This document shows, piece after piece, positions 1 to 8,239 of a stretch of DNA of 8,239 bases (positions are counted from its first letter, which is position 1; every line of letters starts with the position of its first letter). The translations under genes and the position numbers were made by a program. Under the pieces are notes generated by a model, which saw only the letters and a program-made list of their open reading frames with translations, ran no database searches and had not been told where the DNA came from. Where the stretch lies: IMG/VR virus record IMGVR_UViG_3300014921_000099, positions 1 to 8,239 of that record; one strand, written 5' to 3'. This stretch comes from a virus. Its lineage: Duplodnaviria > Heunggongvirae > Uroviricota > Caudoviricetes.

Positions 1-144
1 GTCTCGGAAGTCACGTTTACTCAGGACCAGAACGGCACCCTGACGGAAATCCGTGTCGGCCCGCCTGATGCTTATCTGCCTGAACCCGAAGCCCCCGGCG
101 CGCGGAAAAAGAAAAAAGCCAGAGTACAGGAGGACCCGTTCTGA
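1..144 (+). CDS. 3' end of an upstream phage tail/baseplate gene (partial; start lies outside the window)
   Basis: Frame 1 is open from base 1 to a TGA at 142-144 that overlaps the ATG at 144 of the next gene (TGATG coupling). Composition is GC-rich like the downstream tail genes. Product cannot be assigned from 47 residues. Confidence 0.45.
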   Translation, partial: VSEVTFTQDQNGTLTEIRVGPPDAYLPEPEAPGARKKKKARVQEDPF

Positions 145-692
145 TGAGGACGATTGAAGCCATGCAGCGACAACTTCTCGGCCTGATTGGGCGGGCCGTG
201 GTGAAAAGCATCAGTGCCGCCACGAAATGTCAGACCGTGGATGTGTCCCTGATTGCCGGTGAACCCAAAGCCGGGGTTGAACATCTTGAACCCTACGGTT
301 TTACCGCAAGGGCAAACAGCGGTGCGGAAGCGGTGGTGTTGTTTCCGGATGGCGACCGTTCTCATGCGGTGGTTGTTACGGTGTCGGACCGGCGCTACCG
401 CCTGAAAGGGCTGCAGACGGGTGAGGTGGCTGTCTATGACGATCAGGGGCAGTCTGTGACGCTGACCCGGGAGGGGATCGTGGTGGACGGTGCAGGGAAA
501 ACGATCACGTTTCGCAATGCAACTGAAGCACGTTTTGAAATGGATCTGGAAGTGACCGGACAAGTGAAAGACCTGTGCGACTCCGGCGGCACCACCATGT
601 CAGCGATGCGGCTTGCCTATAACGGGCATCGTCACAGAGAGAACGGTCAGGGCAGTAACACCGACAAACCTGATAAAGCGATGGAGGCATGA
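144..692 (+). CDS. Baseplate central spike protein (P2 gpV / Mu gp45-like)
   Basis: 182-aa ORF with AGGAGG at 128-133 upstream of ATG 144. Translation has the look of the gpV/gp45 spike family, including an HxH motif ('NGHRHRENG') near the C-terminus, typical of the metal-binding spike apex. Followed by the expected baseplate gene order. Assignment by family recognition, not by search. Confidence 0.8.
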   Translation: MRTIEAMQRQLLGLIGRAVVKSISAATKCQTVDVSLIAGEPKAGVEHLEPYGFTARANSGAEAVVLFPDGDRSHAVVVTVSDRRYRLKGLQTGEVAVYDDQGQSVTLTREGIVVDGAGKTITFRNATEARFEMDLEVTGQVKDLCDSGGTTMSAMRLAYNGHRHRENGQGSNTDKPDKAMEA

Positions 693-1117
693 TGGAACTG
701 TGGCTGACGGTGAACGGTAAACGCACCTGCGCCAGCGCACCGCTGGATCCGCTGACCCGCGCCGTGGTGATTTCCCTGTTCACCTGGCGGCGGGCGGAGC
801 CTGATGACAATGCCGACGTCCCGATGGGATGGTGGGGGGATACCTGGCCTGCGGTACAGAATGACCGTTACGGCTCCCGACTGTGGCTGCTTCAGCGCAG
901 CAAACTGACCAATCAGCTGGTGCAGACGGTAAGGGGATATATCCGCGAATGCCTGCAATGGATGACTGATGACGGCGTGGTGTCCCGTATTGATCTGGAT
1001 ATCCGCCGCACCGGGATTAATGAGCTGGGTAACAGTATCACCCTCTGGCGTCGTGATGGACCAGTAATGATTTCTTTTGATGATCTGTGGAGTGCGATAA
1101 CGCATGGCGGACAGTGA
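689..1117 (+). CDS. Phage GP46-family baseplate protein (Mu gp46-like)
   Basis: 142-aa ORF whose start overlaps the stop of the spike gene (ATGA/TGATG at 689-694). Size and position between spike and baseplate J match Mu-like baseplate modules. Confidence 0.75.
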   Translation: MMELWLTVNGKRTCASAPLDPLTRAVVISLFTWRRAEPDDNADVPMGWWGDTWPAVQNDRYGSRLWLLQRSKLTNQLVQTVRGYIRECLQWMTDDGVVSRIDLDIRRTGINELGNSITLWRRDGPVMISFDDLWSAITHGGQ

Positions 1118-2162
1118 ATTTCAGCGCCCGACGCTGGCAGAAAATATCAGTATGCTCCGTAACGATTTATTCGCCAGGCTGGACGTCAGCGACACGCTCC
1201 GGCGCATGGATGAAGACGTGCGGGCAAAGGTGTATGCGGCGGCGCTGCATACGGTCTACGGTTACATCGATTATCTGGCAATGAATATGCTGCCTGACCT
1301 GTGCGATGAGTCCTGGTTGGCGCGACATGCTGCGATGAAACGGTGTCCGCGCAAGGGAGCCACGGTTGCCAGCGGGTATATGCGCTGGGAAGGTGTCAGC
1401 GATGGCCTGAAGGTGACTGCCGGGAGTGTTATTCAGCGCGATGACCTGGTGCAGTACACGACAACTGACGATGCAATCAGCTCCGGTGGTGTCCTGCGCG
1501 TGCCGATCGCCTGCTCAAGTGCAGGTGCGGTCGGTAACGCTGACGACGGTACGGCATTAATCCTGGTCACGCCGGTGAATGGTCTGCCGTCTTCCGGTGT
1601 GGCTGACACCCTGACAGGCGGATTTGATACTGAAGAGCTGGATACGTGGCGCGCCCGCGTCATTGAGCCGTATTACTGGACGCCGCAGGGCGGGGCTGAC
1701 GGGGACTATGTCGTCTGGGCTAAAGAAGTGCCTGGCATTACCCGCGCATGGACATACCGACACTGGATGGGAACGGGGACTGTCGGTGTGATGATTGCCA
1801 GCAGTGACCTGATTAATCCCATTCCGGAAGAATCAACGGAAACGGCGGCAAGACAACATATCGGGCCACTGGCCCCGGTGGCAGGCTCTGATTTGTATGT
1901 GTTCAGGCCGGTGGCACATACGGTGGATTTTCATATCCGTGTGACGCCGGACACACCGGAAATACGGGCTGCCATCACCGCGGAGTTGCGTTCGTTCCTG
2001 CTGCGTGATGGTTATCCGCAGGGAGAACTGAAGGTGTCACGTATCAGTGAAGCGATTTCCGGTGCGAACGGGGAATACAGCCATCAGTTGCTTGCACCGG
2101 CGGACAATATCACCATTGCAAAAAATGAACTGGCGGTTCTGGGGGCGATTTCATGGACGTGA
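1104..2162 (+). CDS. Baseplate J-like protein (Mu gp47 / P2 gpJ family)
   Basis: 352-aa ORF overlapping the previous gene by 14 nt and the next by 10 nt. Size and position are typical of the baseplate J wedge protein. GC-rich codon usage consistent with neighbours. Confidence 0.8.
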
Positions 2163-2737
2163 CAAACGATGATTACATCCGTCTGTTGTCAGCACTGTTG
2201 CCGCCCGGTCCGGCGTGGTCAGCCAGCGATCCGGCGATTGCCGGTGCGGCACCGTCATTAACCCGCGTTCATCAGCGTGCGGATGCCCTGATGCGGGAGC
2301 TGGATCCGCGCACCACCACCGAACTGATAAATCGCTGGGAGCGTCTGTGCGGCCTGCCGGATGAATGTATTCCTACAGGGACACAGACCCTTCGCCAGCG
2401 TCAGCAACGGCTGGATGCGAAGGTGAACCTGGCGGGGGGCCTCAACGAGAATTTTTATCTTGCACAGCTTGCTGCCCTGGGCAGACCGGATGCCAACATC
2501 ACGCGATACGACAAAAGCACGTTCACCTGCTCATCGGCCTGTACTGACGCGGTGAATGCGCCTGAATGGCGGTATTACTGGCGGGTCAACATGCCAGCCG
2601 CCACCAACACCACCTGGATGACATGTGGCGATCCCTGTGATTCCGCGCTGCGCTTCTGGGGGGACACCGTTGTCGAGTGTGTTCTTAACAAACTCTGCCC
2701 GTCGCATACCTATGTGATTTTTAAATATCCGGAGTAA
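2153..2737 (+). CDS. Tail protein, P2 gpI / Mu gp48 / YmfQ-like (DUF2313 family)
   Basis: 194-aa ORF immediately after baseplate J and immediately before the tail fibre gene, the conserved location of the gpI-like protein. N-terminal '[16 protein letters not shown]' region is characteristic of this family as I recall it. Confidence 0.75.
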
Positions 2738-2740
2738 TCC

Positions 2741-3388
2741 ATGCATCGTATAGACACGAAAACCGCGCAGAAGGATAAGTTCGGCGCGGGTAAGAACGGT
2801 TTTACCCGTGGTAACCCCCAGACCGGCACGCCTGCCACCGATCTGGATGATGACTACTTTGACATGTTGCAGGAGGAGCTTTGCAGCGTTGTGGAGGCAT
2901 CCGGTGCCAGCCTGGAGAAGGGGCGGCATGACCAGCTGCTTACCGCGCTTCGTGCGCTGCTGTTAAGCCGCAAGAATCCGTTTGGCGATATCAAATCGGA
3001 TGGCACGGTGAAAACAGCTCTCGAAAACCTTGGTTTGGGAGAAGCGGCAAAGAGGAATGTGGGGACAGGAGAAAATCAGGTTCCGGATATGAACAGCTTT
3101 GGTAACTCATTGACCGCCAATGGATACCAGAAATTACCTGGGGGGATGATTATTCAATGGGGGAGTTTTTCTGTCTCACCAACCGGAGGAAGTGTTGGAA
3201 CAGTTGATATAACATTACCTGTAGCTTTCCCTGCTGCTTGTCGTTCGGTAAACGCTCTTATTTCAACTAATGATCCTTCTGCCCGTTCTGTGGGCTTTGA
3301 TATTGGAAGTACCAACAGAACCAAAATCAGATTTACTTACACTTCTGCTACAACAAATTCAATTTACTGGATGGCTGTGGGGTATTAA
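2741..3388 (+). CDS. Tail fibre protein: constant N-terminal part (codons 1-~93) fused to the variable C-terminal part currently in the expressed orientation
   Basis: 215-aa ORF. N-terminus '[21 protein letters not shown]...' resembles the conserved N-terminal region of enterobacterial e14/Mu-type side tail fibres. The reading frame runs through the crossover site at 3019-3042 ('LENLGLGE'). GC drops sharply downstream of the site, as expected for a swapped variable domain. Confidence 0.85.
3019..3042. repeat. Invertase crossover site (gix/pix/hix-like), left copy, inside the tail fibre ORF
   Basis: TCTCGAAAACC-TT-GGTTTGGGAGA has imperfect dyad symmetry and closely resembles hix/gix sites (hixL recalled as TTCTTGAAAACCAAGGTTTTTGATAA). 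Its reverse complement shares the core TTGGTTTGGGAGAAG exactly with the site at 4877-4900. Confidence 0.7.
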
Positions 3389-3390
3389 CT

Positions 3391-3822
3391 ATGGAAAAGA
3401 CATATTATTTTAATCCCTCTGATTCGGGATTTTATATTTCACCAGATAGCCAAACCATTCCTGAGAACGCTACGAAAATAAACTTTACTATTTATTCTGA
3501 GTTCGCAGGAGTTGCATGGCCTGATGGTAAAATACTTGGTTCAGATAAAAATGGTTTTCCAGCATGGCAGGATGCGCCACCACTTACCAGCGAAGAATTA
3601 ATCTCAATCGCTGAATCAAATAAACAGCGATTAGTTAATCAGGCCAACGAATACATGAACAGTAAACAATGGCCTGGTAAAGCGGCGATTGGTCGTCTGA
3701 AAGGTGAGGAACTGGCGCAATATAATTTGTGGCTGGATTATCTGGACGCACTGGAACTGGTCGATACTTCCAGTGCGCCAGATATTGAATGGCCTACTCC
3801 TCCGGCAGTTCAGGCCAGATGA
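3391..3822 (+). CDS. Tail fibre assembly chaperone (Tfa / Mu U-like), expressed orientation
   Basis: 143-aa ORF starting 2 nt after the fibre stop. C-terminus '...LDYLDALELVDTSSAPDIEWPTPP' is the conserved Tfa C-terminal motif. Confidence 0.85.
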   Translation: MEKTYYFNPSDSGFYISPDSQTIPENATKINFTIYSEFAGVAWPDGKILGSDKNGFPAWQDAPPLTSEELISIAESNKQRLVNQANEYMNSKQWPGKAAIGRLKGEELAQYNLWLDYLDALELVDTSSAPDIEWPTPPAVQAR

Positions 3823-4396
3823 CATCCGGCGCGGTACTGGTATCTGTTGCCGTCACCGCGTCAATGTAATCCAGCACAGTGTTAAGTCGGGTGGTCTCTG
3901 CCTGCATCAGCTTCCGCCCGGCCTGCAATTTCAGTTGAATCAGACTAATGGAAGCCATTGCAGTATCAATCAGTGACTGACGTTGTGCTTCTGCCGCGTC
4001 TACTGCGGCGCTATGCTGTGTCTCAGTATCCGTTACCCATTTCTCACCATCCCATTTATCGTATGGCGTTAACGGGGCGATAGTGGTTGTTTTTTCGGGG
4101 TAATCACCCGGAGTTGTGATTTCTTTGGCGTCTCCCGTTTCGGTGTTATAGACGATTTCACCGCGATGGTCTGGTACATATTCCCATGAGTTAAAATCTG
4201 CAGAGCGGCAGATTGCATAACCAGCTTTGTAGGTGCCTGGAGCATCTAAACAGGAATATGCCGGAATGCCGACACCAACAGCAAGATATTCAGTTGAAGC
4301 TGAAATATACTCCCGACTCATGACGTCAAAGTTATAAACAGTAATTTCTCCTGCCATAGTGGCAATTAATTCACTGTTTAATTCTGCGTTATTCAT
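3794..4396 (-). CDS. Alternate tail fibre assembly chaperone (Tfa' / Mu U'-like), silent orientation
   Basis: 200-aa ORF on the - strand. C-terminus '...LDYIDAVTATDTSTAPDVIWPELPEE' is the same conserved Tfa motif. Start ATG overlaps the stop of the alternate fibre cassette (TAATG at 4394-4398). Its 3' end overlaps the + strand tfa convergently by 29 nt. Confidence 0.8.
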   Translation of the reverse strand: MNNAELNSELIATMAGEITVYNFDVMSREYISASTEYLAVGVGIPAYSCLDAPGTYKAGYAICRSADFNSWEYVPDHRGEIVYNTETGDAKEITTPGDYPEKTTTIAPLTPYDKWDGEKWVTDTETQHSAAVDAAEAQRQSLIDTAMASISLIQLKLQAGRKLMQAETTRLNTVLDYIDAVTATDTSTAPDVIWPELPEE

Positions 4397-4900
4397 TATG
4401 CAGCCCTCACAATATAGTTAAAAGCGACATTTCGTGGGCGTGTTTCATTCGCACCTGCAGGTTTAGTCGTTGCCGCAACAACACCACCCTCTGTAATAGC
4501 CGGGTTGGGAATTGGGTAATTATCGAAGTCAATGGCTGGAGACAGGGGCGTGATTTGTTTTAAAATCGTGGTGCCTGTAAAACTTTCCAGAGTCTGGTCG
4601 TTAGTTCGTGAAGTCCAGATTCCCCAATAGTGGTTATGACTGACAATCGCACCGTCCTGAAGCGTTAATAATCCCCTTCCGTTATCCACTCCACGCCCGT
4701 CATCCCAGCCACGAATAAACTCACCACGTAAATCAGGCAATTTATTTGTCGGATAAGCCTTTGCCAGTTCCGGGTATTCTTCAGCAGAAAAAGCGGCACC
4801 GTTGCATTTCAGCCAGCCTGTTGGCGGAGTGGCGGAAGGCCACGGAACAGGCACACCAACGGGGAATGCAGAACCTTCTCCCAAACCAACGTTTAAGAAA
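4396..4900 (-). CDS. Alternate tail fibre C-terminal (receptor-binding) cassette, promoterless and lacking its own N-terminus; becomes fused to the constant fibre N-terminus after inversion
   Basis: Minus-strand frame is open from the crossover site to the stop at 4396-4398. The frame through the site reads 'FLNVGLGE', matching 'LENLGLGE' at the left site, so inversion gives an in-frame fusion. Contains a typical fibre tip motif 'PVPWP...GWLKCNG...YPEL'. The ORF-track ATG at 4929 is probably not a real start. Confidence 0.75.
4877..4900. repeat. Invertase crossover site, right copy (inverted relative to 3019-3042), just upstream of the invertase remnant
   Basis: TCTCCCAAACCAACGTTTAAGAAA. The first 15 nt are identical to the reverse complement of the left site. 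Position immediately 5' of the invertase start is the canonical arrangement. Confidence 0.7.
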
Positions 4901-4955
4901 ATGCAGAGGTAACAGCTAACTGGCATCATTCCTGCTTTTGTCAGGGGGAGCTACC

Positions 4956-5162
4956 ATGCTTATTGGCTATGTAAGCGTATCAAAAAATGACCAGAACACA
5001 GATCTACAACGTAATACGTTGAACTGTGCAGGATGCGAGTTGATTTTTGAAGATAAGTGGTACAAAGTCCGACAGGCCGGGCTGAAAAAACTGCTCAGGA
5101 CACTATTGGCAGTAGACACTCTGGTTGTCTGGAAGCCGGGTAGCTCAGGAGCAGAACAATAG
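4956..5162 (+). pseudogene. Serine DNA invertase (Pin/Gin/Hin/Cin family), 5'-terminal remnant only; truncated and degenerate
   Basis: Translation from ATG 4956 (GGGGGAG RBS at 4944-4950) gives 'MLIGYVSVSKNDQNTDLQRN..CAGCE.IFEDK', the unmistakable N-terminus of Gin/Pin/Hin invertases. The conserved Arg of the 'GY.RVS' active-site motif is Ser here. Similarity decays after 'DTLVVWK' and the frame stops at 5162 after ~69 codons, where full-length invertases are ~185-190 aa. Downstream DNA is unrelated AT-rich sequence. The ORF-track start at 4938 is a TTG; I prefer ATG 4956. Confidence 0.8.
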
Positions 5163-5345
5163 TAAGCTACTGTGATATGCTGAAGTCTGAGTGTTTTTGC
5201 ACAATATAAGAGTATCCGTGAATTGCACATCGCTATTGATGAGTATATCCATATTACATTAATGAACGTCTGATATACTATAATTTTAGCTATGTCTTTT
5301 ATGATAGAATTAGGAAACAATAAAACATCATTGATGATGTACCTT

Positions 5346-5352
5346 TAAGGAG
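5346..5352 (+). promoter_or_regulatory. Ribosome-binding site of the 377-aa cargo gene
   Basis: TAAGGAG, 5 nt upstream of ATG 5358. Confidence 0.6.
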
Positions 5353-5357
5353 TTTAT

Positions 5358-6491
5358 ATGCTGGAAACAGCTCAAAAGAATGCAGGAAGACCTTATCCTG
5401 ATGCTCTTGTAAATCGCTTCGTTTTAGATATATCTAAGCTAAAGGATGGTGATGTTATCGTAGAGCATGGTTATAGTACTTACAGCCCAACAATTGAAAA
5501 AGTAACTAAGTGTTATTATACGCATGCAATGATTTACCTTGAGGGAACTATTATTGAGGCTACAAGTGACGGTGGCGTGTTTTCTAGAGTTCCCAATAGA
5601 ATAGCTGTTCCATTAGAAAAAGATTTGGTTGTATTAAGATTAAAGAATTCATTAGATCCGTATATTATGAATCTAATAACATCAAGGGCTAGGGAGTTGA
5701 TTGGTTCAAGCTATAGTATAACTGAAGCAGCATCAACACAAATATATAAAAACACTCCTGCTAAAAAAGCAAATATAAAAATCAAACCTAAGAGAAGTCA
5801 ATTCTGTTCTAGACTTGTTGCTCAATGCTATTCTTATGGTGGAGTTAATATAGTCGATAATATAGATTACTGTACGCCGAAGGATATCTTTAACTCTATA
5901 TACTTGCAACCAGTTCATAACGCAATTAAAGAAGGTTCGTCAGAAGAAATCTATCATGCCAATATAGGGGAGTTACATCCTAAACACCTAAAATCTTGTG
6001 TCGCCTGGGTTAAAACTGCAAAAAAAATTCTTGCCAAGCATGATGTTAAAGTTCAAACAATTAATGAAATCATACATGCCGTGGTAAAATTAAATAATAC
6101 CAAAGTCGATAAGGCAGTCTTTAAAGCCATCAATGATAGTGGTTACTTACAAGATTATGTTGATGATCGCATTCAAAATGAATATAGATATAACATAGTA
6201 ATGTTTCTTGATTTTTATAAAAAACAACAAATCTCTATCGAGATGGAAATTGAAAAAGAATTTGGCATTTATAAAACCAGGAAAAGTAATTTTCAAACTT
6301 ATAAGGATATGTATGAAGAACACCCAGCCAGAATAATAAAATGCCATCTTGATCTTGAAAAAAAACTATTAAAAAGCATTCATGAAAGATTAACCATTAT
6401 CCTTACCGTATGTCAGATGTTAGCATTAACCCCGAAAAATATAGCCAAAGCAAAAGAAATATTTATAGATATAAAATTCTTACTTGAATAA
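5358..6491 (+). CDS. Hypothetical two-domain protein: N-terminal permuted NlpC/P60-like (YiiX/DUF830-type) Cys/His hydrolase domain, C-terminal Lys/Glu-rich helical domain of unknown function
   Basis: 377-aa ORF with strong RBS and a rho-independent terminator 10 nt after the stop. About 30% GC against ~60% in the tail genes. N-terminal ~180 aa contain 'DGDVIVEHGY', 'THAMIY', 'IIEATSDGGV' and 'FCSRLV', which I read as the His-before-Cys arrangement of permuted papain-fold enzymes (candidate catalytic H56 and C150). Residues ~190-377 are K/E-rich with no motif I recognise. Domain call is from motif recognition only. Confidence 0.8.
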   Translation: MLETAQKNAGRPYPDALVNRFVLDISKLKDGDVIVEHGYSTYSPTIEKVTKCYYTHAMIYLEGTIIEATSDGGVFSRVPNRIAVPLEKDLVVLRLKNSLDPYIMNLITSRARELIGSSYSITEAASTQIYKNTPAKKANIKIKPKRSQFCSRLVAQCYSYGGVNIVDNIDYCTPKDIFNSIYLQPVHNAIKEGSSEEIYHANIGELHPKHLKSCVAWVKTAKKILAKHDVKVQTINEIIHAVVKLNNTKVDKAVFKAINDSGYLQDYVDDRIQNEYRYNIVMFLDFYKKQQISIEMEIEKEFGIYKTRKSNFQTYKDMYEEHPARIIKCHLDLEKKLLKSIHERLTIILTVCQMLALTPKNIAKAKEIFIDIKFLLE

Positions 6492-6500
6492 TAGATGGTT

Positions 6501-6528
6501 AAAGGCTCGATATTGAGCCTTTTTATTA
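6501..6528 (+). terminator. Rho-independent terminator of the 377-aa gene
   Basis: AAAGGCTC-gatatt-GAGCCTTT perfect 8-bp stem with 6-nt loop, followed by a T-rich run (TTTATT), 10 nt after the TAA stop. Confidence 0.7.
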
Positions 6529-6539
6529 ACAGCGTTTAC

Positions 6540-7020
6540 ATAAGAGATATTACGGAGTGTTTTTGTAAGGAGGGGTTAATAATCACCTTCATTTTTATAT
6601 GGCTCGAACTATGTAGTTGAATGAAATATTACGAGGTCTGACTGTTGCATGGTTAACACCATCGCTAACATATGGATCGGGATAAGGGAATCTGGAAAAT
6701 CCAAAACTGTAATCGACTATACCATCATGATTACTGCATGACCGGAGCCTACGTCAAAGTGCCCAGCATACTGTGTGAAAGATGTTGCTGCTTGAAAACT
6801 AAGTAATGTCATACGATTATCGATTCCTCTTCCATCATCCTAGCCACGAATAAATTCACCACGTGACTCGGGTAATATGCCAGCCGGATAAACCGCGTCT
6901 AATTTTGGATAGATATTTTTATCGAAGGGGCACCGTTATATTTCAGCCAGTCTTCTGGTGGGTTGGGGAGGGGCAACGGCACTGGCAACGCGGAGCCTTC
7001 CTCCAAACCAAAAAATAAAA
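6540..7020 (-). pseudogene. Decayed second copy of the alternate tail fibre C-terminal cassette, with remnant of the tfa' start and of the crossover site
   Basis: Hand alignment shows roughly 65-70% identity between 6590-7012 and 4396-4900, in the same orientation. It includes a crossover-site remnant (CCTTCCTCCAAACCAA at ~6996-7012) and a 'ttcat' junction remnant at 6588-6592. The frame is broken: TGG to TAG in the 'GEFIRGW' region plus indels, and no ORF of 60 aa or more is called here. Upstream of the junction only ~18 codons of a tfa'-like start remain. Confidence 0.6.
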
Positions 7021-7202: not shown

Positions 7203-7580
7203 TTAAGCTTTTACTCGGCCTTTAACTCCCGCCATTAGACTATGCTTTCCTTCTAAATCTACGTCAGATGTCCATATTGTGTAATTGCGGCTCTTGCGGC
7301 TAGAGGCAACAATCTTACTCTTAATTTCTCTTGGGGACATGTTCTTTGCTTGAGCTACAAGCACATAGTCTTTGGATGCTTTCTCTACCGCTTTCAATAA
7401 ATTTTCTGTGAGGATTTGTCCGTTGTTACGGCATCTACGAGTATTAAATCGTACAGCAAAATTCAGCGCATCCAGATAATCAGTGCGGATAGTTTCTTCT
7501 TTGAGCATCTGTTGCACGAATTTGCGGGCAGTTTTCGATTTCCCCAATTGTTTCACTACTGCTTGCTTACCGGGCTTCAT
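7203..7580 (-). CDS. Hypothetical small basic protein (125 aa, about a quarter Lys/Arg); possible nucleic-acid-binding protein
   Basis: ORF with a consensus AGGAGG RBS 5 nt upstream of the ATG. Lies 68 nt downstream of, and co-directional with, the 196-aa gene. About 40% GC. No family recognised from the sequence. Confidence 0.65.
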   Translation of the reverse strand: MKPGKQAVVKQLGKSKTARKFVQQMLKEETIRTDYLDALNFAVRFNTRRCRNNGQILTENLLKAVEKASKDYVLVAQAKNMSPREIKSKIVASSRKSRNYTIWTSDVDLEGKHSLMAGVKGRVKA

Positions 7581-7648: not shown

Positions 7649-8239
7649 TCAGATCAGTTTTGTCAAGAGCTTAGCGCGGGGCAAATTATTTCGCTTCACT
7701 CGAGCTTTGTCTGCAGCATTCAGTGAATAACCAAAAGATTCATATCTTTCAATGAGCTGCTTGTCAGGCCGACTAATATTGACCTGTCTGATACCATATG
7801 CATCAGCGAAACTCTCTGCAATGATTAGCGCAATTGGCATGACGAAACCTTTCAATGGATGATCATATGGATTTCCTTCGAGATATCTAAGTGTTATGCA
7901 GAGCCGTTTTTTAGAACGTCGACCAAGCATCAACCCGCAAAGAAAATCGCGGCATCGAATACTCACATCAATGCGTTTGGTCTGATTACGCCTTTCTTGG
8001 TTCCAGTTGATGTCAATGTAATGCCGTTTTTCTGGAAGACGCCACTCCCTGCTAGCCTCATCTGAGTCTTCATAATAGATGTGACCCAATTTGATTTCAT
8101 TAACCGGCAATCGGTTACCAAACCTTGTAGCAATAGAAAGCATAGCATCTGCGATTGCCTCAGAATAGATTAACTCATGGGTTAGCTCTTCAGTGGGACG
8201 AACTATGCTTGCTTGTACTGACTCCATATCCACTACCAT
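7649..8239 (-). CDS. Hypothetical protein (196 aa or more); N-terminus may extend beyond the window edge
   Basis: Long minus-strand ORF ending at a TGA at 7649-7651. The window ends exactly at the reverse complement of an ATG, so the true start is uncertain. About 40-42% GC. No family recognised with confidence. Confidence 0.6.
   Translation of the reverse strand: MVVDMESVQASIVRPTEELTHELIYSEAIADAMLSIATRFGNRLPVNEIKLGHIYYEDSDEASREWRLPEKRHYIDINWNQERRNQTKRIDVSIRCRDFLCGLMLGRRSKKRLCITLRYLEGNPYDHPLKGFVMPIALIIAESFADAYGIRQVNISRPDKQLIERYESFGYSLNAADKARVKRNNLPRAKLLTKLI

What the first reader, a model, noticed from the sequence alone, without database searches (positions are those of the whole stretch)
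5163..6535. AT-rich single-gene cargo inserted where the 3' part of the tail-fibre invertase gene should be
Composition changes abruptly at the premature stop of the invertase remnant (5162), from ~60% GC in the phage structural genes to about 30% GC (hand count 28-35% on sampled stretches). The insert holds exactly one gene with its own strong RBS and a clean intrinsic terminator, then ends inside the remnant of a tfa'-like gene. In the related e14 element, the position just beyond pinE is occupied by mcrA, a restriction/defence gene (established knowledge). That precedent makes this slot a plausible place for horizontally acquired defence or lysogenic-conversion cargo. This is the best candidate in the window for an undescribed system.
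Basis: partly seen in the sequence, partly recalled or inferred. Interest (0 to 1): 0.8.

Follow-up and report, generated by a model that had tools for sequence, protein, structure and literature searches.

The report
Phage-borne lipid-hydrolase-like cargo gene
An AT-rich, self-contained gene in a decayed E. coli prophage encodes an uncharacterised two-domain YiiX-like cysteine hydrolase that recurs in the accessory hotspots of phages and plasmids, which makes it a reasonable but untested candidate for a new single-gene anti-phage or lysogenic-conversion factor.

Summary
The AT-rich single-gene block is real: 32% GC against 58% in the baseplate genes, with a strong RBS, an intact 377-aa ORF and a terminator hairpin. 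Its borders differ from those given. The e14-like homology ends at 5134, inside a frameshifted pin remnant. The imported block is 5265-7011, which is the gene plus a tail-collar fibre pseudogene, not a tfa' remnant. This block is 91% identical to part of the tail-fibre inversion region of a Salmonella P2-like prophage. Both of its ends fall on the central AA of invertase crossover sites.

Relatives are always solo genes in accessory slots of mobile elements. These include the P2 Z/fun slot, prophage ends next to int, the lambdoid P-nin region and IncF plasmids. Several sit beside bSEFIR, CBASS, AbiU, AbiH or PD-T7-1.

No PADLOC model and no paper links the family to defence. A defence or exclusion role through acyl-lipid hydrolysis is inferred, not shown.

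The parts
3018..3043 (+). Left crossover site of the e14-like invertible P segment (context)
   Evidence: It matches the Hin/Gin/Cin/Pin-type consensus with 1 mismatch. Two such sites are found in the window against 0.01 expected. It forms a 20-nt, 95% complementary inverted repeat with 4875-4894.
4876..4901 (+). Right crossover site of the e14-like invertible segment (context)
   Evidence: The segment 3025-4894 is in the opposite orientation in NZ_CP062871.
4938..5162 (+). Decayed N-terminal remnant of a pinE-type serine invertase
   Evidence: Pfam Resolvase matches residues 9-66. It is 89% identical to pinE, has 5-bp and 1-bp deletions, and the homology stops at 5134. The rest of the prophage is 98.3% identical to the same relative.
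5135..5264 (.). 130-bp stretch of unknown origin between the pin remnant and the imported block
   Evidence: It has no match in the phage collection. It occurs only in the same few E. coli genomes. GC is 0.39.
5265..5278 (+). Central AA plus right half of an invertase crossover site; left border of the imported block
   Evidence: Identity with the Salmonella P2-like prophage begins exactly at the central AA of its site 2, TTCTCCCAAACC AA CGTTTGATATAC.
5279..5284 (+). Perfect -10 hexamer TATAAT, conserved in the Salmonella copy; possible promoter element
   Evidence: Read from the sequence. No -35 is present and the consensus scan did not call a promoter. Its function is not shown.
5346..5352 (+). 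Shine-Dalgarno TAAGGAG, 5 nt before the ATG
   Evidence: Read from the sequence.
5358..6491 (+). 377-aa cargo gene: a permuted NlpC/P60 (YaeF/YiiX-like) cysteine hydrolase domain (about 20-185) plus an uncharacterised helical domain (about 190-377)
6501..6527 (+). Intrinsic-terminator-like hairpin (9-bp stem) plus a T-rich tail
   Evidence: It is conserved in the Salmonella copy.
6595..7011 (-). Pseudogene of an alternative tail-fibre C-terminal 'collar' segment, co-imported with the cargo gene
   Evidence: It is 91% identical in DNA to an intact 136-aa Collar ORF of L008. In the window it is split over three frames with stops. It has 69-88% nt matches to 'phage tail protein' genes. It is a paralogue of 4658-4889 (repeats D1-D3).
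6998..7011 (+). Left half of a crossover site plus central AA; right border of the imported block
   Evidence: TTCCTCCAAACC AA. Identity with L008 site 3 ends exactly after the central AA. It is in direct orientation with 4875-4889 and inverted relative to 3030-3044 (D3 and I8).

Best explanation
The feature is a mobile single-gene accessory ('moron') cassette from the tail-fibre/invertase/Z-fun hotspot of P2-like phages. It has come to rest in a graveyard of prophage remnants next to ssrA.

Shown: the 1.75-kb block 5265-7011 (gene plus a collar-segment pseudogene) is 91% identical to part of the multi-inversion tail-fibre region of a Salmonella P2-like prophage. It ends on both sides at the central dinucleotide of invertase crossover sites. 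The gene has stayed intact while the flanking pin and collar genes decayed.

Inferred: a Hin/Pin-family invertase moved the block. One route is excision between the two directly repeated sites followed by re-insertion at a quasi-site. An equivalent aberrant recombination is also possible.

Shown: the product is a soluble, basic, cytoplasmic two-domain protein. It has a YaeF/YiiX-type permuted papain-like (PPNE) domain with an intact His56/Glu67/Tyr119/Cys150 catalytic set. This domain is permanently coupled to an unannotated helical domain.

Inferred from the family: it forms a thiol acyl-enzyme on a fatty-acyl substrate, such as a phospholipid, a lipoprotein or another lipidated molecule.

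Inferred from context: it serves the carrying phage or plasmid in conflicts with other phages. The most likely form is a stand-alone abortive-infection or exclusion factor. In that model the helical domain keeps the hydrolase or acyltransferase off until infection, and the enzyme then damages or remodels the inner membrane from the cytoplasmic side.
For: Cassette anatomy.

Origin and borders.

Selection: dN/dS is 0.36, with 26 synonymous and 38 non-synonymous differences. The neighbouring pin and collar genes are frameshifted.

Lipid link in the family: YiiX crystallised with a fatty acid and has a hydrophobic S1 pocket; LRAT/H-Rev107 enzymes are phospholipase and acyltransferase enzymes (PMC3142127). 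A permuted NlpC/P60 T6SS toxin, Tox-Act1, is related to lipid-targeting enzymes (PMC12994826).

Fixed architecture: 361 clusters carry the C-domain, and 109 of 113 sampled also have Peptidase_C92.

No signal peptide or TM helix: maximum KD19 is 1.38.

Context: relatives are always solo genes in accessory slots.
- P2 G/FI slot, which holds Fun(Z) in P2
- inside the inversion region
- after ogr at a prophage end
- next to CI and int
- lambdoid region between P and nin
- an ICE-like element
- IncF plasmids next to the yacAB toxin-antitoxin pair and bSEFIR

Known defence genes nearby: type I CBASS 14 bp downstream, AbiU, PD-T7-1, two AbiH, and an Old/AriA-like ATPase.

The Z/fun hotspot is described in the literature as a mixed locus of receptor-binding, invertase and defence-like cargo (10.1101/2024.10.15.618418).
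Against: There is no experimental evidence of any phenotype.

There is no PADLOC v2 hit at E<=0.1, and I found no paper linking YiiX-like proteins to phage defence.

The window protein alone scores below Pfam's gathering threshold (22.6 against 27 bits).

The enrichment of defence genes among near neighbours is modest and was not formally tested. About 6 strong non-RM hits occur in 96 near ORFs, against about 1 strong candidate hit plus methyltransferases in 96 distant ORFs.

The substrate, the trigger and any role of the helical domain are unknown. Its fold matches only generic helical bundles.

No promoter was identified.

No empty target site was found, so the invertase-mediated transfer is inferred from the borders only.

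In this locus the gene sits among pseudogenes and could be inert.
Confidence: 0.5

Rival explanations
1. It is a lysogenic-conversion or host-fitness factor unrelated to phage defence. In this reading the enzyme remodels lipoproteins or membrane lipids of the lysogen or plasmid host, for example for stress tolerance, envelope properties or host interaction. It is kept because it benefits the carrier cell.
For: PPNE enzymes are proposed to be lipid or lipoprotein amidases and acyltransferases (PMC3142127). The PPNE-like LnsA takes part in lipoprotein N-acylation in S. aureus (PMC7387801). Phage hotspots also carry virulence cargo such as CDT. The gene is under purifying selection.
Against: The protein has no signal peptide, lipobox or TM segment, so it cannot reach periplasmic lipoproteins directly. 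Its repeated placement beside dedicated defence genes and in exclusion slots fits a conflict role better.
Confidence: 0.18
2. It is a counter-defence or establishment factor of mobile elements. In this reading the enzyme inactivates a host defence component or signal when the phage or plasmid enters a new cell.
For: Accessory hotspots mix defence and anti-defence genes. The family occurs on both phages and conjugative plasmids. One copy sits directly upstream of a CBASS operon.
Against: On IncF plasmids it lies in the replication and partition region between yacAB and parM, which by my own knowledge of IncF plasmids is not the leading region. In prophages it is oriented and punctuated like a lysogen-expressed moron. 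No known anti-defence family resembles it.
Confidence: 0.12
3. In this particular locus the gene is an inert relic. It would be a recently stranded passenger in a decaying mosaic of e14-like, P2-like and CP4-57-like remnants, whatever the family does elsewhere.
For: Both neighbours (pin and collar) are pseudogenes. IS3 has truncated the region in the complete genomes. No promoter was detected, and the imported block lost the sequence to the left of its -10. Only 6 of 5426 complete genomes carry it.
Against: The ORF is intact and full length relative to the family, and its RBS and terminator are conserved. The protein is 100% identical to its database cluster representative, whose cluster has 50 member sequences, and the DNA is 99.9% identical in the 6 complete genomes. 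Divergence from the Salmonella copy shows purifying selection.
Confidence: 0.1
4. It is an addiction or toxin module that stabilises the carrying element through post-segregational killing.
For: It lies next to the yacAB toxin-antitoxin pair and partition genes on IncF plasmids. Permuted NlpC/P60 domains serve as antibacterial toxins in T6SS.
Against: No conserved small partner or antitoxin gene occurs in any of more than 40 contexts examined.
Confidence: 0.07
5. It is a phage morphogenesis or tail-fibre accessory protein, since it lies within the tail-fibre region.
For: It is located between tail-fibre segments and the sheath gene in P2-like prophages.
Against: It is on the opposite strand to the tail operons and has its own RBS and terminator. 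Its GC3 is 24% against 62% in the structural genes. It is absent from most related prophages. It also occurs on plasmids, next to int/cI, and in the lambdoid early region.
Confidence: 0.03

Closest known systems
E. coli YiiX (PDB 2IF6) and Bacillus cereus BcPPNE (PDB 3KW0), YaeF/YiiX family of permuted NlpC/P60 enzymes (Pfam PF05708, MEROPS C92)
   Different: Sequence identity is only about 20%. Neither structure has the extra roughly 190-residue helical domain, which is fixed in this subfamily. This protein also has a Lys-rich loop before the catalytic Cys. It is carried by mobile elements rather than by the core chromosome. The biological function of YiiX and YaeF is itself unknown.
Phage P2 Fun(Z), the lysogenic-conversion gene between G and FI that blocks T5
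   Same: The genomic slot is the same in P2-like prophages: opposite strand, between the tail-fibre assembly and sheath genes. Like Fun(Z), it is a non-essential single-gene cargo.
   Different: There is no detectable sequence similarity: P2 is not among the tblastn hits at E<=1e-3. Fun(Z) is 528 aa. No T5 phenotype has been tested here.
e14 pinE-mcrA arrangement
   Same: An accessory defence gene lies just beyond the tail-fibre invertase of an e14-like element. The window's prophage is 98% identical to such an element up to pin.
   Different: McrA is an HNH nuclease and this protein is a PPNE. Here pin is truncated and the mcrA-attR end is missing altogether. The cargo came from a P2-like inversion region, not from the e14 slot.
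Lipid-directed effectors in biological conflicts: the T6SS toxin Tox-Act1 (permuted NlpC/P60), eukaryotic LRAT/PLAAT phospholipase-acyltransferases and the CBASS patatin effector CapV
   Same: Tox-Act1 and LRAT/PLAAT share the permuted NlpC/P60 catalytic core. With CapV the shared idea is killing or arresting a cell by attacking membrane lipid. One relative lies 14 bp from a capV-cyclase operon.
   Different: None of its neighbours matched a secretion-system or Rhs Pfam family, and no conserved partner such as an immunity gene was seen. It has no cyclic-nucleotide sensor domain. Lipid activity is not shown for this subfamily.
Multi-inversion tail-fibre regions (Hin/Gin/Cin/Pin systems; Min of p15B) and recombination at quasi-sites
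   Same: The window has 26-bp crossover sites flanking alternative fibre C-termini. The block borders lie at the central dinucleotide where these recombinases cut.
   Different: Here a non-fibre cargo gene occupies one invertible unit, and the block is found outside its original region with only half-sites at its ends. That Cin can use quasi-sites is recalled from the literature and was not checked here.

Membership tests
YaeF/YiiX-like permuted NlpC/P60 enzymes (PPNE; Pfam PF05708) | Circularly permuted order: the catalytic His precedes the catalytic Cys, which sits at the start of a C-terminal helix | tested here: met
   His56 comes before Cys150, and helix 150-160 starts at the Cys. HMM alignment to 3KW0 puts Cys150 on Cys154.
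YaeF/YiiX-like permuted NlpC/P60 enzymes (PPNE; Pfam PF05708) | Catalytic tetrad Cys/His/polar (Glu)/Tyr conserved (PMC3142127) | tested here: met
   H56, Y119 and C150 are invariant in 30 sequences and E67 is mostly conserved. In 113 sequences C150 is invariant and H56 and Y119 are at least 90% conserved. The residues are confirmed in the window protein.
YaeF/YiiX-like permuted NlpC/P60 enzymes (PPNE; Pfam PF05708) | Fold superposes on solved members | tested here: met
YaeF/YiiX-like permuted NlpC/P60 enzymes (PPNE; Pfam PF05708) | Score above Pfam's gathering threshold | tested here: inconclusive
   The window protein scores 22.6 bits against a cut-off of 27. The Klebsiella-phage relative scores 39.4 bits, 109 of 113 relatives match at E<=1e-3, and the family profile hits 3KW0 at 1e-9.
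YaeF/YiiX-like permuted NlpC/P60 enzymes (PPNE; Pfam PF05708) | Hydrophobic S1 pocket or lipid binding; thiol hydrolase or acyltransferase activity | not testable with these tools
Biochemistry is needed.
P2 Z/fun-type hotspot cargo | Lies in the variable slot between the tail-fibre/assembly genes and sheath gene FI of P2-like phages, as a non-essential gene | tested here: met
   This is met for relatives (Citrobacter L010-L013). It is also met for the donor-like Salmonella region, where the gene sits between fibre segments and the invertase next to FI. The window copy is a displaced piece of that region. P2's own slot holds Fun(Z).
P2 Z/fun-type hotspot cargo | Homology to Fun(Z) or a T5-exclusion phenotype | tested here: not met
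   tblastn against 50,697 phage records at E<=1e-3 found only Klebsiella phage Kp4852-2, not P2. The phenotype cannot be tested here.
e14 pinE-mcrA slot cargo | Gene lies between an intact pinE and the icd' attR of an e14-like element | tested here: not met
   pin is truncated at about nt 210 and frameshifted. There is no mcrA or icd' here. The flank is ssrA-island DNA.
Described anti-phage defence systems (PADLOC-DB v2.0.0) | Significant match to a model of a known or candidate defence protein | tested here: not met
   There are no families at E<=0.1. Newer catalogues such as DefenseFinder updates could not be searched. Text searches found no report.
Defence-island gene (guilt by association) | Recurrent proximity to known defence genes in diverse genomes | tested here: inconclusive
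   The near neighbours (2 ORFs on each side, 28 viral loci) include two AbiH, PD-T7-1, CBASS (2 genes) and AbiU. bSEFIR lies next to the gene on IncF plasmids, and an Old/AriA-like ATPase in Salinicola. A distant-ORF control gave mostly methyltransferases and one strong candidate hit. The numbers are small and no statistic was computed.
Hin/Gin/Cin/Pin invertible DNA unit | Flanked by 26-bp crossover sites with a conserved central dinucleotide, next to a serine invertase | tested here: met
   In Salmonella L008, sites lie at 8191-8216, 9896-9921 and about 11647-11672, with an invertase at 11758-12315. In the window only half-sites remain at 5265-5278 and 6998-7011, and the invertase is dead.
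T6SS/polymorphic-toxin permuted NlpC/P60 effectors (Tox-Act1, TseH) | Fusion to, or neighbourhood of, a secretion system, with an adjacent immunity gene | tested here: not met
   No neighbour matched a T6SS, Rhs or PAAR Pfam family, and no conserved adjacent small gene appears in any context.
Type II toxin-antitoxin module | Conserved adjacent antitoxin gene | tested here: not met
   The gene is solo in all contexts and its neighbours differ every time.

The most novel reading that the evidence does not exclude
The two-domain PPNE-helical protein would be the founding member of a new class of single-gene anti-phage immunity. In that class an infection-gated cytoplasmic thiol acyl-hydrolase or acyltransferase attacks membrane lipid or a lipidated target. 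In addition, such cargo would travel between prophages as a cassette cut and pasted by tail-fibre invertases at crossover or quasi-crossover sites, which would be an unrecognised route for moving defence genes.
Probability: 0.25. Interest if true: 0.75.

Novelty: new variant of a known kind. Interest (0 to 1): 0.55.

Why it matters
No biological role has been established for bacterial YaeF/YiiX-type permuted papain-like enzymes, although structures have existed since 2006. This subfamily has at least 361 clusters at 50% identity across Proteobacteria, phages and plasmids. Its consistent placement in exclusion and defence hotspots gives a concrete, cheap hypothesis to test. If it protects against phage, it would add a lipid-directed cysteine hydrolase to the list of defence effectors. 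It would also give the PPNE family its first physiological context. Separately, the block's borders lie exactly at invertase crossover sites. That suggests tail-fibre invertases can mobilise non-fibre cargo, which would help explain why the P2 Z/fun/invertase locus is a mixed hotspot.

Tried and rejected
1. tfa' remnant: rejected. The downstream remnant is a tail-collar fibre segment.

2. Homology to P2 Fun(Z) or McrA: none.

3. Known defence models: PADLOC has no hit for the gene or for the two downstream ORFs.

4. Literature: searches for YiiX, Peptidase_C92, NlpC and permuted together with phage defence found nothing relevant. Neither DefensePredictor nor the domain-centric discovery paper mentions the family. 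Rousset 2022 covers the old/tin locus, not this one.

5. C-terminal domain: there is no Pfam match, there are no meaningful PDB sequence hits (best E 0.007, coiled-coil-like), and structural hits are only generic helical bundles. No alternative N-domains were found fused to it.

6. Obligate partner gene: rejected. The TIR/bSEFIR neighbour on IncF plasmids is absent in p_STEC1575_1 and in all phage contexts.

7. Empty target site (5264 joined to 7012): not found in E. coli complete genomes or in IMG/VR. The single metagenome hit has the same filled arrangement.

8. Origin of 5135-5264: no match.

9. Promoter: the scan found none on the + strand upstream of the gene.

Full report
**1. What is in the window**

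The window is E. coli DNA. Positions 1-5134 are 98.3% identical to the tail end of intact e14-like prophages. This stretch holds baseplate V, gp46, J and YmfQ. It also holds a gp53-like fibre gene, tfa, an inverted tfa'/collar segment, and then pin.

In one such relative the order continues pinE - mcrA - icd' (attR).

The e14-type invertible segment is delimited by crossover sites at 3018-3043 and 4876-4901. Two sites were found against 0.01 expected by chance, and they form a 95% complementary inverted repeat.

**2. The observation**

GC content by segment:

| Segment | GC |
|---|---|
| 1-3017 (constant tail genes) | 0.576 |
| 3018-4901 (invertible segment) | 0.461 |
| pin remnant | 0.451 |
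| 377-aa CDS | 0.320 |

GC3 is 0.24 in the CDS against 0.62 in the baseplate J gene.

The interval holds one real ORF, 5358-6491, on the + strand. TAAGGAG lies 5 nt upstream of its ATG. A 9-bp hairpin with a T-rich tail sits at 6501-6527 (MFE -12 kcal/mol, z -2.5).

Three details are not correct.
- Homology to e14-like phages ends at 5134, not at the stop at 5162. The pin remnant is an old pseudogene: 89% identical to pinE, with 5-bp and 1-bp deletions.
- The remnant after the gene is not tfa'. It is a tail-fibre C-terminal 'collar' segment on the minus strand (about 6595-7011), broken over three frames.
- No sigma-70-like promoter was detected. There is only a perfect TATAAT at 5279-5284.

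**3. Where the block came from**

Window 5265-7011 is 91% identical in DNA to a stretch of a Salmonella enterica P2-like prophage (L008). The layout there is:

H fibre gene > | site 1 | < tfa < Collar167 | site 2 | 373-aa homologue > < Collar136 | site 3 | invertase > sheath FI

The cargo gene therefore sits inside a multi-inversion tail-fibre region. It occupies the place where the chaperone of the third fibre segment would be.

The shared block starts exactly at the central AA of site 2 and ends exactly at the central AA of site 3. The window keeps only the right half-site at 5265-5278 and the left half-site at 6998-7011.

This is the pattern expected if a Hin/Pin-family invertase excised the unit between two directly repeated sites and re-inserted it at a quasi-site. 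Equivalent aberrant events would give the same result. That such recombinases use quasi-sites is my recollection of the Cin literature, and I did not check it here.

I could not find an empty target site. The 130 bp at 5135-5264 match nothing. The mechanism is therefore inferred from the borders alone.

**4. The locus**

Only 6 of 5426 complete E. coli genomes carry the block. In these genomes, and in the draft contigs that encode the identical protein, it lies a few hundred bases from ssrA. Only two hypothetical minus-strand ORFs separate them (7203-7580 and 7649-8239). IS3 truncates the e14-like part in the complete genomes.

A fragment of the 196-aa ORF adjoins CP4-57-like island genes in another strain. 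The region is therefore a junction of several decayed mobile elements at the ssrA hotspot. It is not a clean insertion into pin.

Against this background the cargo ORF is intact. dN/dS against the Salmonella copy is 0.36, from 26 synonymous and 38 non-synonymous differences.

**5. The protein**

Pfam and NCBIfam give sub-threshold hits to the YaeF/YiiX permuted papain-like family. Stronger evidence comes from several directions.
- A profile of 30 relatives matches B. cereus BcPPNE (3KW0) at E 1e-9 and E. coli YiiX (2IF6) at 4e-5.
- In viral structure predictions the same domain matches phage PPNEs and poxvirus and giant-virus G6R/OPG091-like proteins.

The four residues that define the active site in Xu et al. 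2011 are Cys154, His49, Glu64 and Tyr127 in BcPPNE (PMC3142127). They correspond to Cys150, His56, Glu67 and Tyr119 here.
- In the 30-sequence alignment Cys150, His56 and Tyr119 are invariant and Glu67 is mostly conserved.
- Across 113 sequences Cys150 is invariant and His56 and Tyr119 are at least 90% conserved.

Residues about 190-377 form a helical domain that ends in a three-helix bundle. It has its own invariant residues: D251, N274, R277, Y278 and E297, with R344 nearly invariant. It has no Pfam match and no informative structural or sequence match.

A profile of this domain alone finds 361 clusters among 1.84 billion representatives. Almost all are 320-400 aa long, with the domain starting at residue 165-190. 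Of 113 sampled, 109 also carry Peptidase_C92. The two domains are therefore an obligate pair, and I saw no domain shuffling.

The protein has no signal peptide or TM helix. Its pI is 9.0. A loop with 7 Lys/Arg (residues 122-149) lies just before the catalytic Cys.

**6. Context of relatives**

In every context the gene is solo and its neighbours differ.
- Between tfa (G) and sheath FI in Citrobacter P2-like prophages. This is the slot that holds Fun(Z) in P2, annotated 'blocks growth of T5; lysogenic conversion'.
- Inside the inversion region in Salmonella.
- After ogr at the end of a Providencia prophage.
- In a degraded Pantoea prophage.
- Right after cI-int in Klebsiella P2-like phages.
- Between P and the nin/Q region of an Enterobacter lambdoid prophage.
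- Next to an integrase in a Paracidovorax element.
- On more than 75 IncF plasmids, between the yacAB toxin-antitoxin pair and parM.

IMG/VR holds 32 viral loci with relatives. I took the two nearest ORFs on each side in 28 non-redundant loci. Among these, PADLOC finds two AbiH, PD-T7-1, AbiU, and a type I CBASS operon that starts 14 bp downstream. The IncF neighbour is bSEFIR (E 1e-66), and a Salinicola copy abuts an Old/AriA-like ATPase.

A control set of 96 more distant ORFs from the same loci gave mainly methyltransferases and one strong candidate-system hit. The association with defence genes is suggestive. It rests on small numbers, and I computed no statistic.

**7. Mechanism**

Shown:
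- a self-contained cassette
- a catalytically intact PPNE domain fused to a conserved helical domain
- a cytoplasmic location predicted from the sequence
- carriage by mobile elements in exclusion and defence slots

From established knowledge of the family:
- YiiX crystallised with a fatty acid in a hydrophobic S1 pocket, and bacterial PPNEs were proposed to cleave fatty-acyl amide linkages.
- The related LRAT/H-Rev107 enzymes are phospholipase A1/2 and acyltransferase enzymes (PMC3142127).

Inference: the protein is a stand-alone conflict effector expressed by the resident phage or plasmid. Its helical domain gates a thiol acyl-hydrolase or acyltransferase. That enzyme attacks inner-membrane lipid or a lipidated target during infection. 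The outcome would be abortive infection or exclusion.

I put about 0.5 on a defence or exclusion role. The alternatives are a host-fitness conversion factor, a counter-defence factor, an inert relic in this locus, an addiction toxin, and a morphogenesis protein. The last is effectively excluded by the gene's distribution and composition.

**8. Comparison and novelty**

The catalytic domain belongs to the YaeF/YiiX PPNE family: fold, permutation and catalytic tetrad were tested and met. The Pfam threshold is missed by this sequence but passed by relatives.

It is not related to Fun(Z) or McrA. It matches no PADLOC model. I found no paper linking the family to phage defence.

NCBI already names the protein 'YiiX/YebB-like N1pC/P60 family cysteine hydrolase'. 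The P2 Z/fun/invertase locus is already recognised as a mixed hotspot (10.1101/2024.10.15.618418). The finding is therefore a new variant of known kinds, not a new category.

What is new:
- the obligate two-domain architecture
- its consistent hotspot ecology
- the crossover-site-bounded cassette

I score interest at 0.55. The hypothesis is testable with simple experiments and would give an orphan enzyme family a role. Nothing functional has been shown yet.

Noticed in passing
window 3025-4894 vs L001 (NZ_CP062871) 12982-13995: The e14-type invertible tail-fibre segment is in the opposite orientation in strain Res13-Lact-PEA14-20 compared with the window, although the adjacent pin gene is a dead remnant in both. 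Inversion therefore happened in this lineage. Either it predates the decay of pin, or another prophage's invertase catalysed it in trans.
   Followed up: partly
window 4938-5134: The pin remnant is only 89% identical to pinE and carries two frameshifting deletions, while the preceding 4.9 kb are about 98% identical to the same relative. The remnant is much older than, or of different origin from, the tail module it adjoins.
   Followed up: partly
window 7203-7580 (-) and 7649-8239 (-): Two hypothetical ORFs (125 aa, Lys-rich; 196 aa) lie between the cargo block and ssrA. They have no Pfam, NCBIfam, PADLOC or PDB match; the only hit is a weak one to phrog_4350 for the 196-aa ORF. The full stretch occurs in only 6 of 5426 complete genomes. 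In three other genomes a 312-bp fragment survives, and in the one examined (PK8568) it adjoins CP4-57-like island genes (CbtA/YeeU, RadC, antirestriction).
   Followed up: partly
window 1-5134 in relation to L001/L002/L006: An e14-like tail module, normally integrated at icd, here lies at the ssrA island slot between ygaQ' and ssrA. In all complete genomes that carry the locus, an IS3 copy has deleted most of it.
   Followed up: partly
window 5135-5264: These 130 bp (39% GC) lie between the end of pin homology and the crossover half-site. They match nothing in the phage collection and occur only in the same few E. coli genomes. Their origin is unknown.
   Followed up: partly
L008 8191-12315 (Salmonella P2-like prophage): The tail-fibre region has three crossover sites and two alternative collar segments, and the cargo gene occupies the position of the second segment's tfa chaperone. 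Inversion between sites 1 and 3 would therefore fuse a fibre tip that has no adjacent cognate assembly gene. In a second Salmonella contig (L009) no collar ORF is called between the cargo gene and the invertase, only a 53-aa ORF.
   Followed up: no
L047 5983-8951 (IMG/VR contig, 89 kb): A distant family member (28% identity) ends 14 bp before a capV-like phospholipase gene followed by a CD-NTase cyclase (type I CBASS). The arrangement looks like an operon. It is a single instance.
   Followed up: partly
L004 2583-4779 and L025 (IncF plasmids): The plasmid homologue (about 34% identity) is followed 90-100 bp later, on the same strand, by a bSEFIR-type TIR protein (PADLOC E 1e-66). The pair sits between the yacAB toxin-antitoxin genes and parM. 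In p_STEC1575_1 no TIR gene is annotated after the homologue and an IS100 lies downstream.
   Followed up: partly
window 4658-4889 vs 6793-7011: These are direct repeats of 71-77% identity. The intact collar ORF of the e14 segment and the collar pseudogene of the imported block are paralogues in the same orientation, each ending in a crossover (half-)site.
   Followed up: yes
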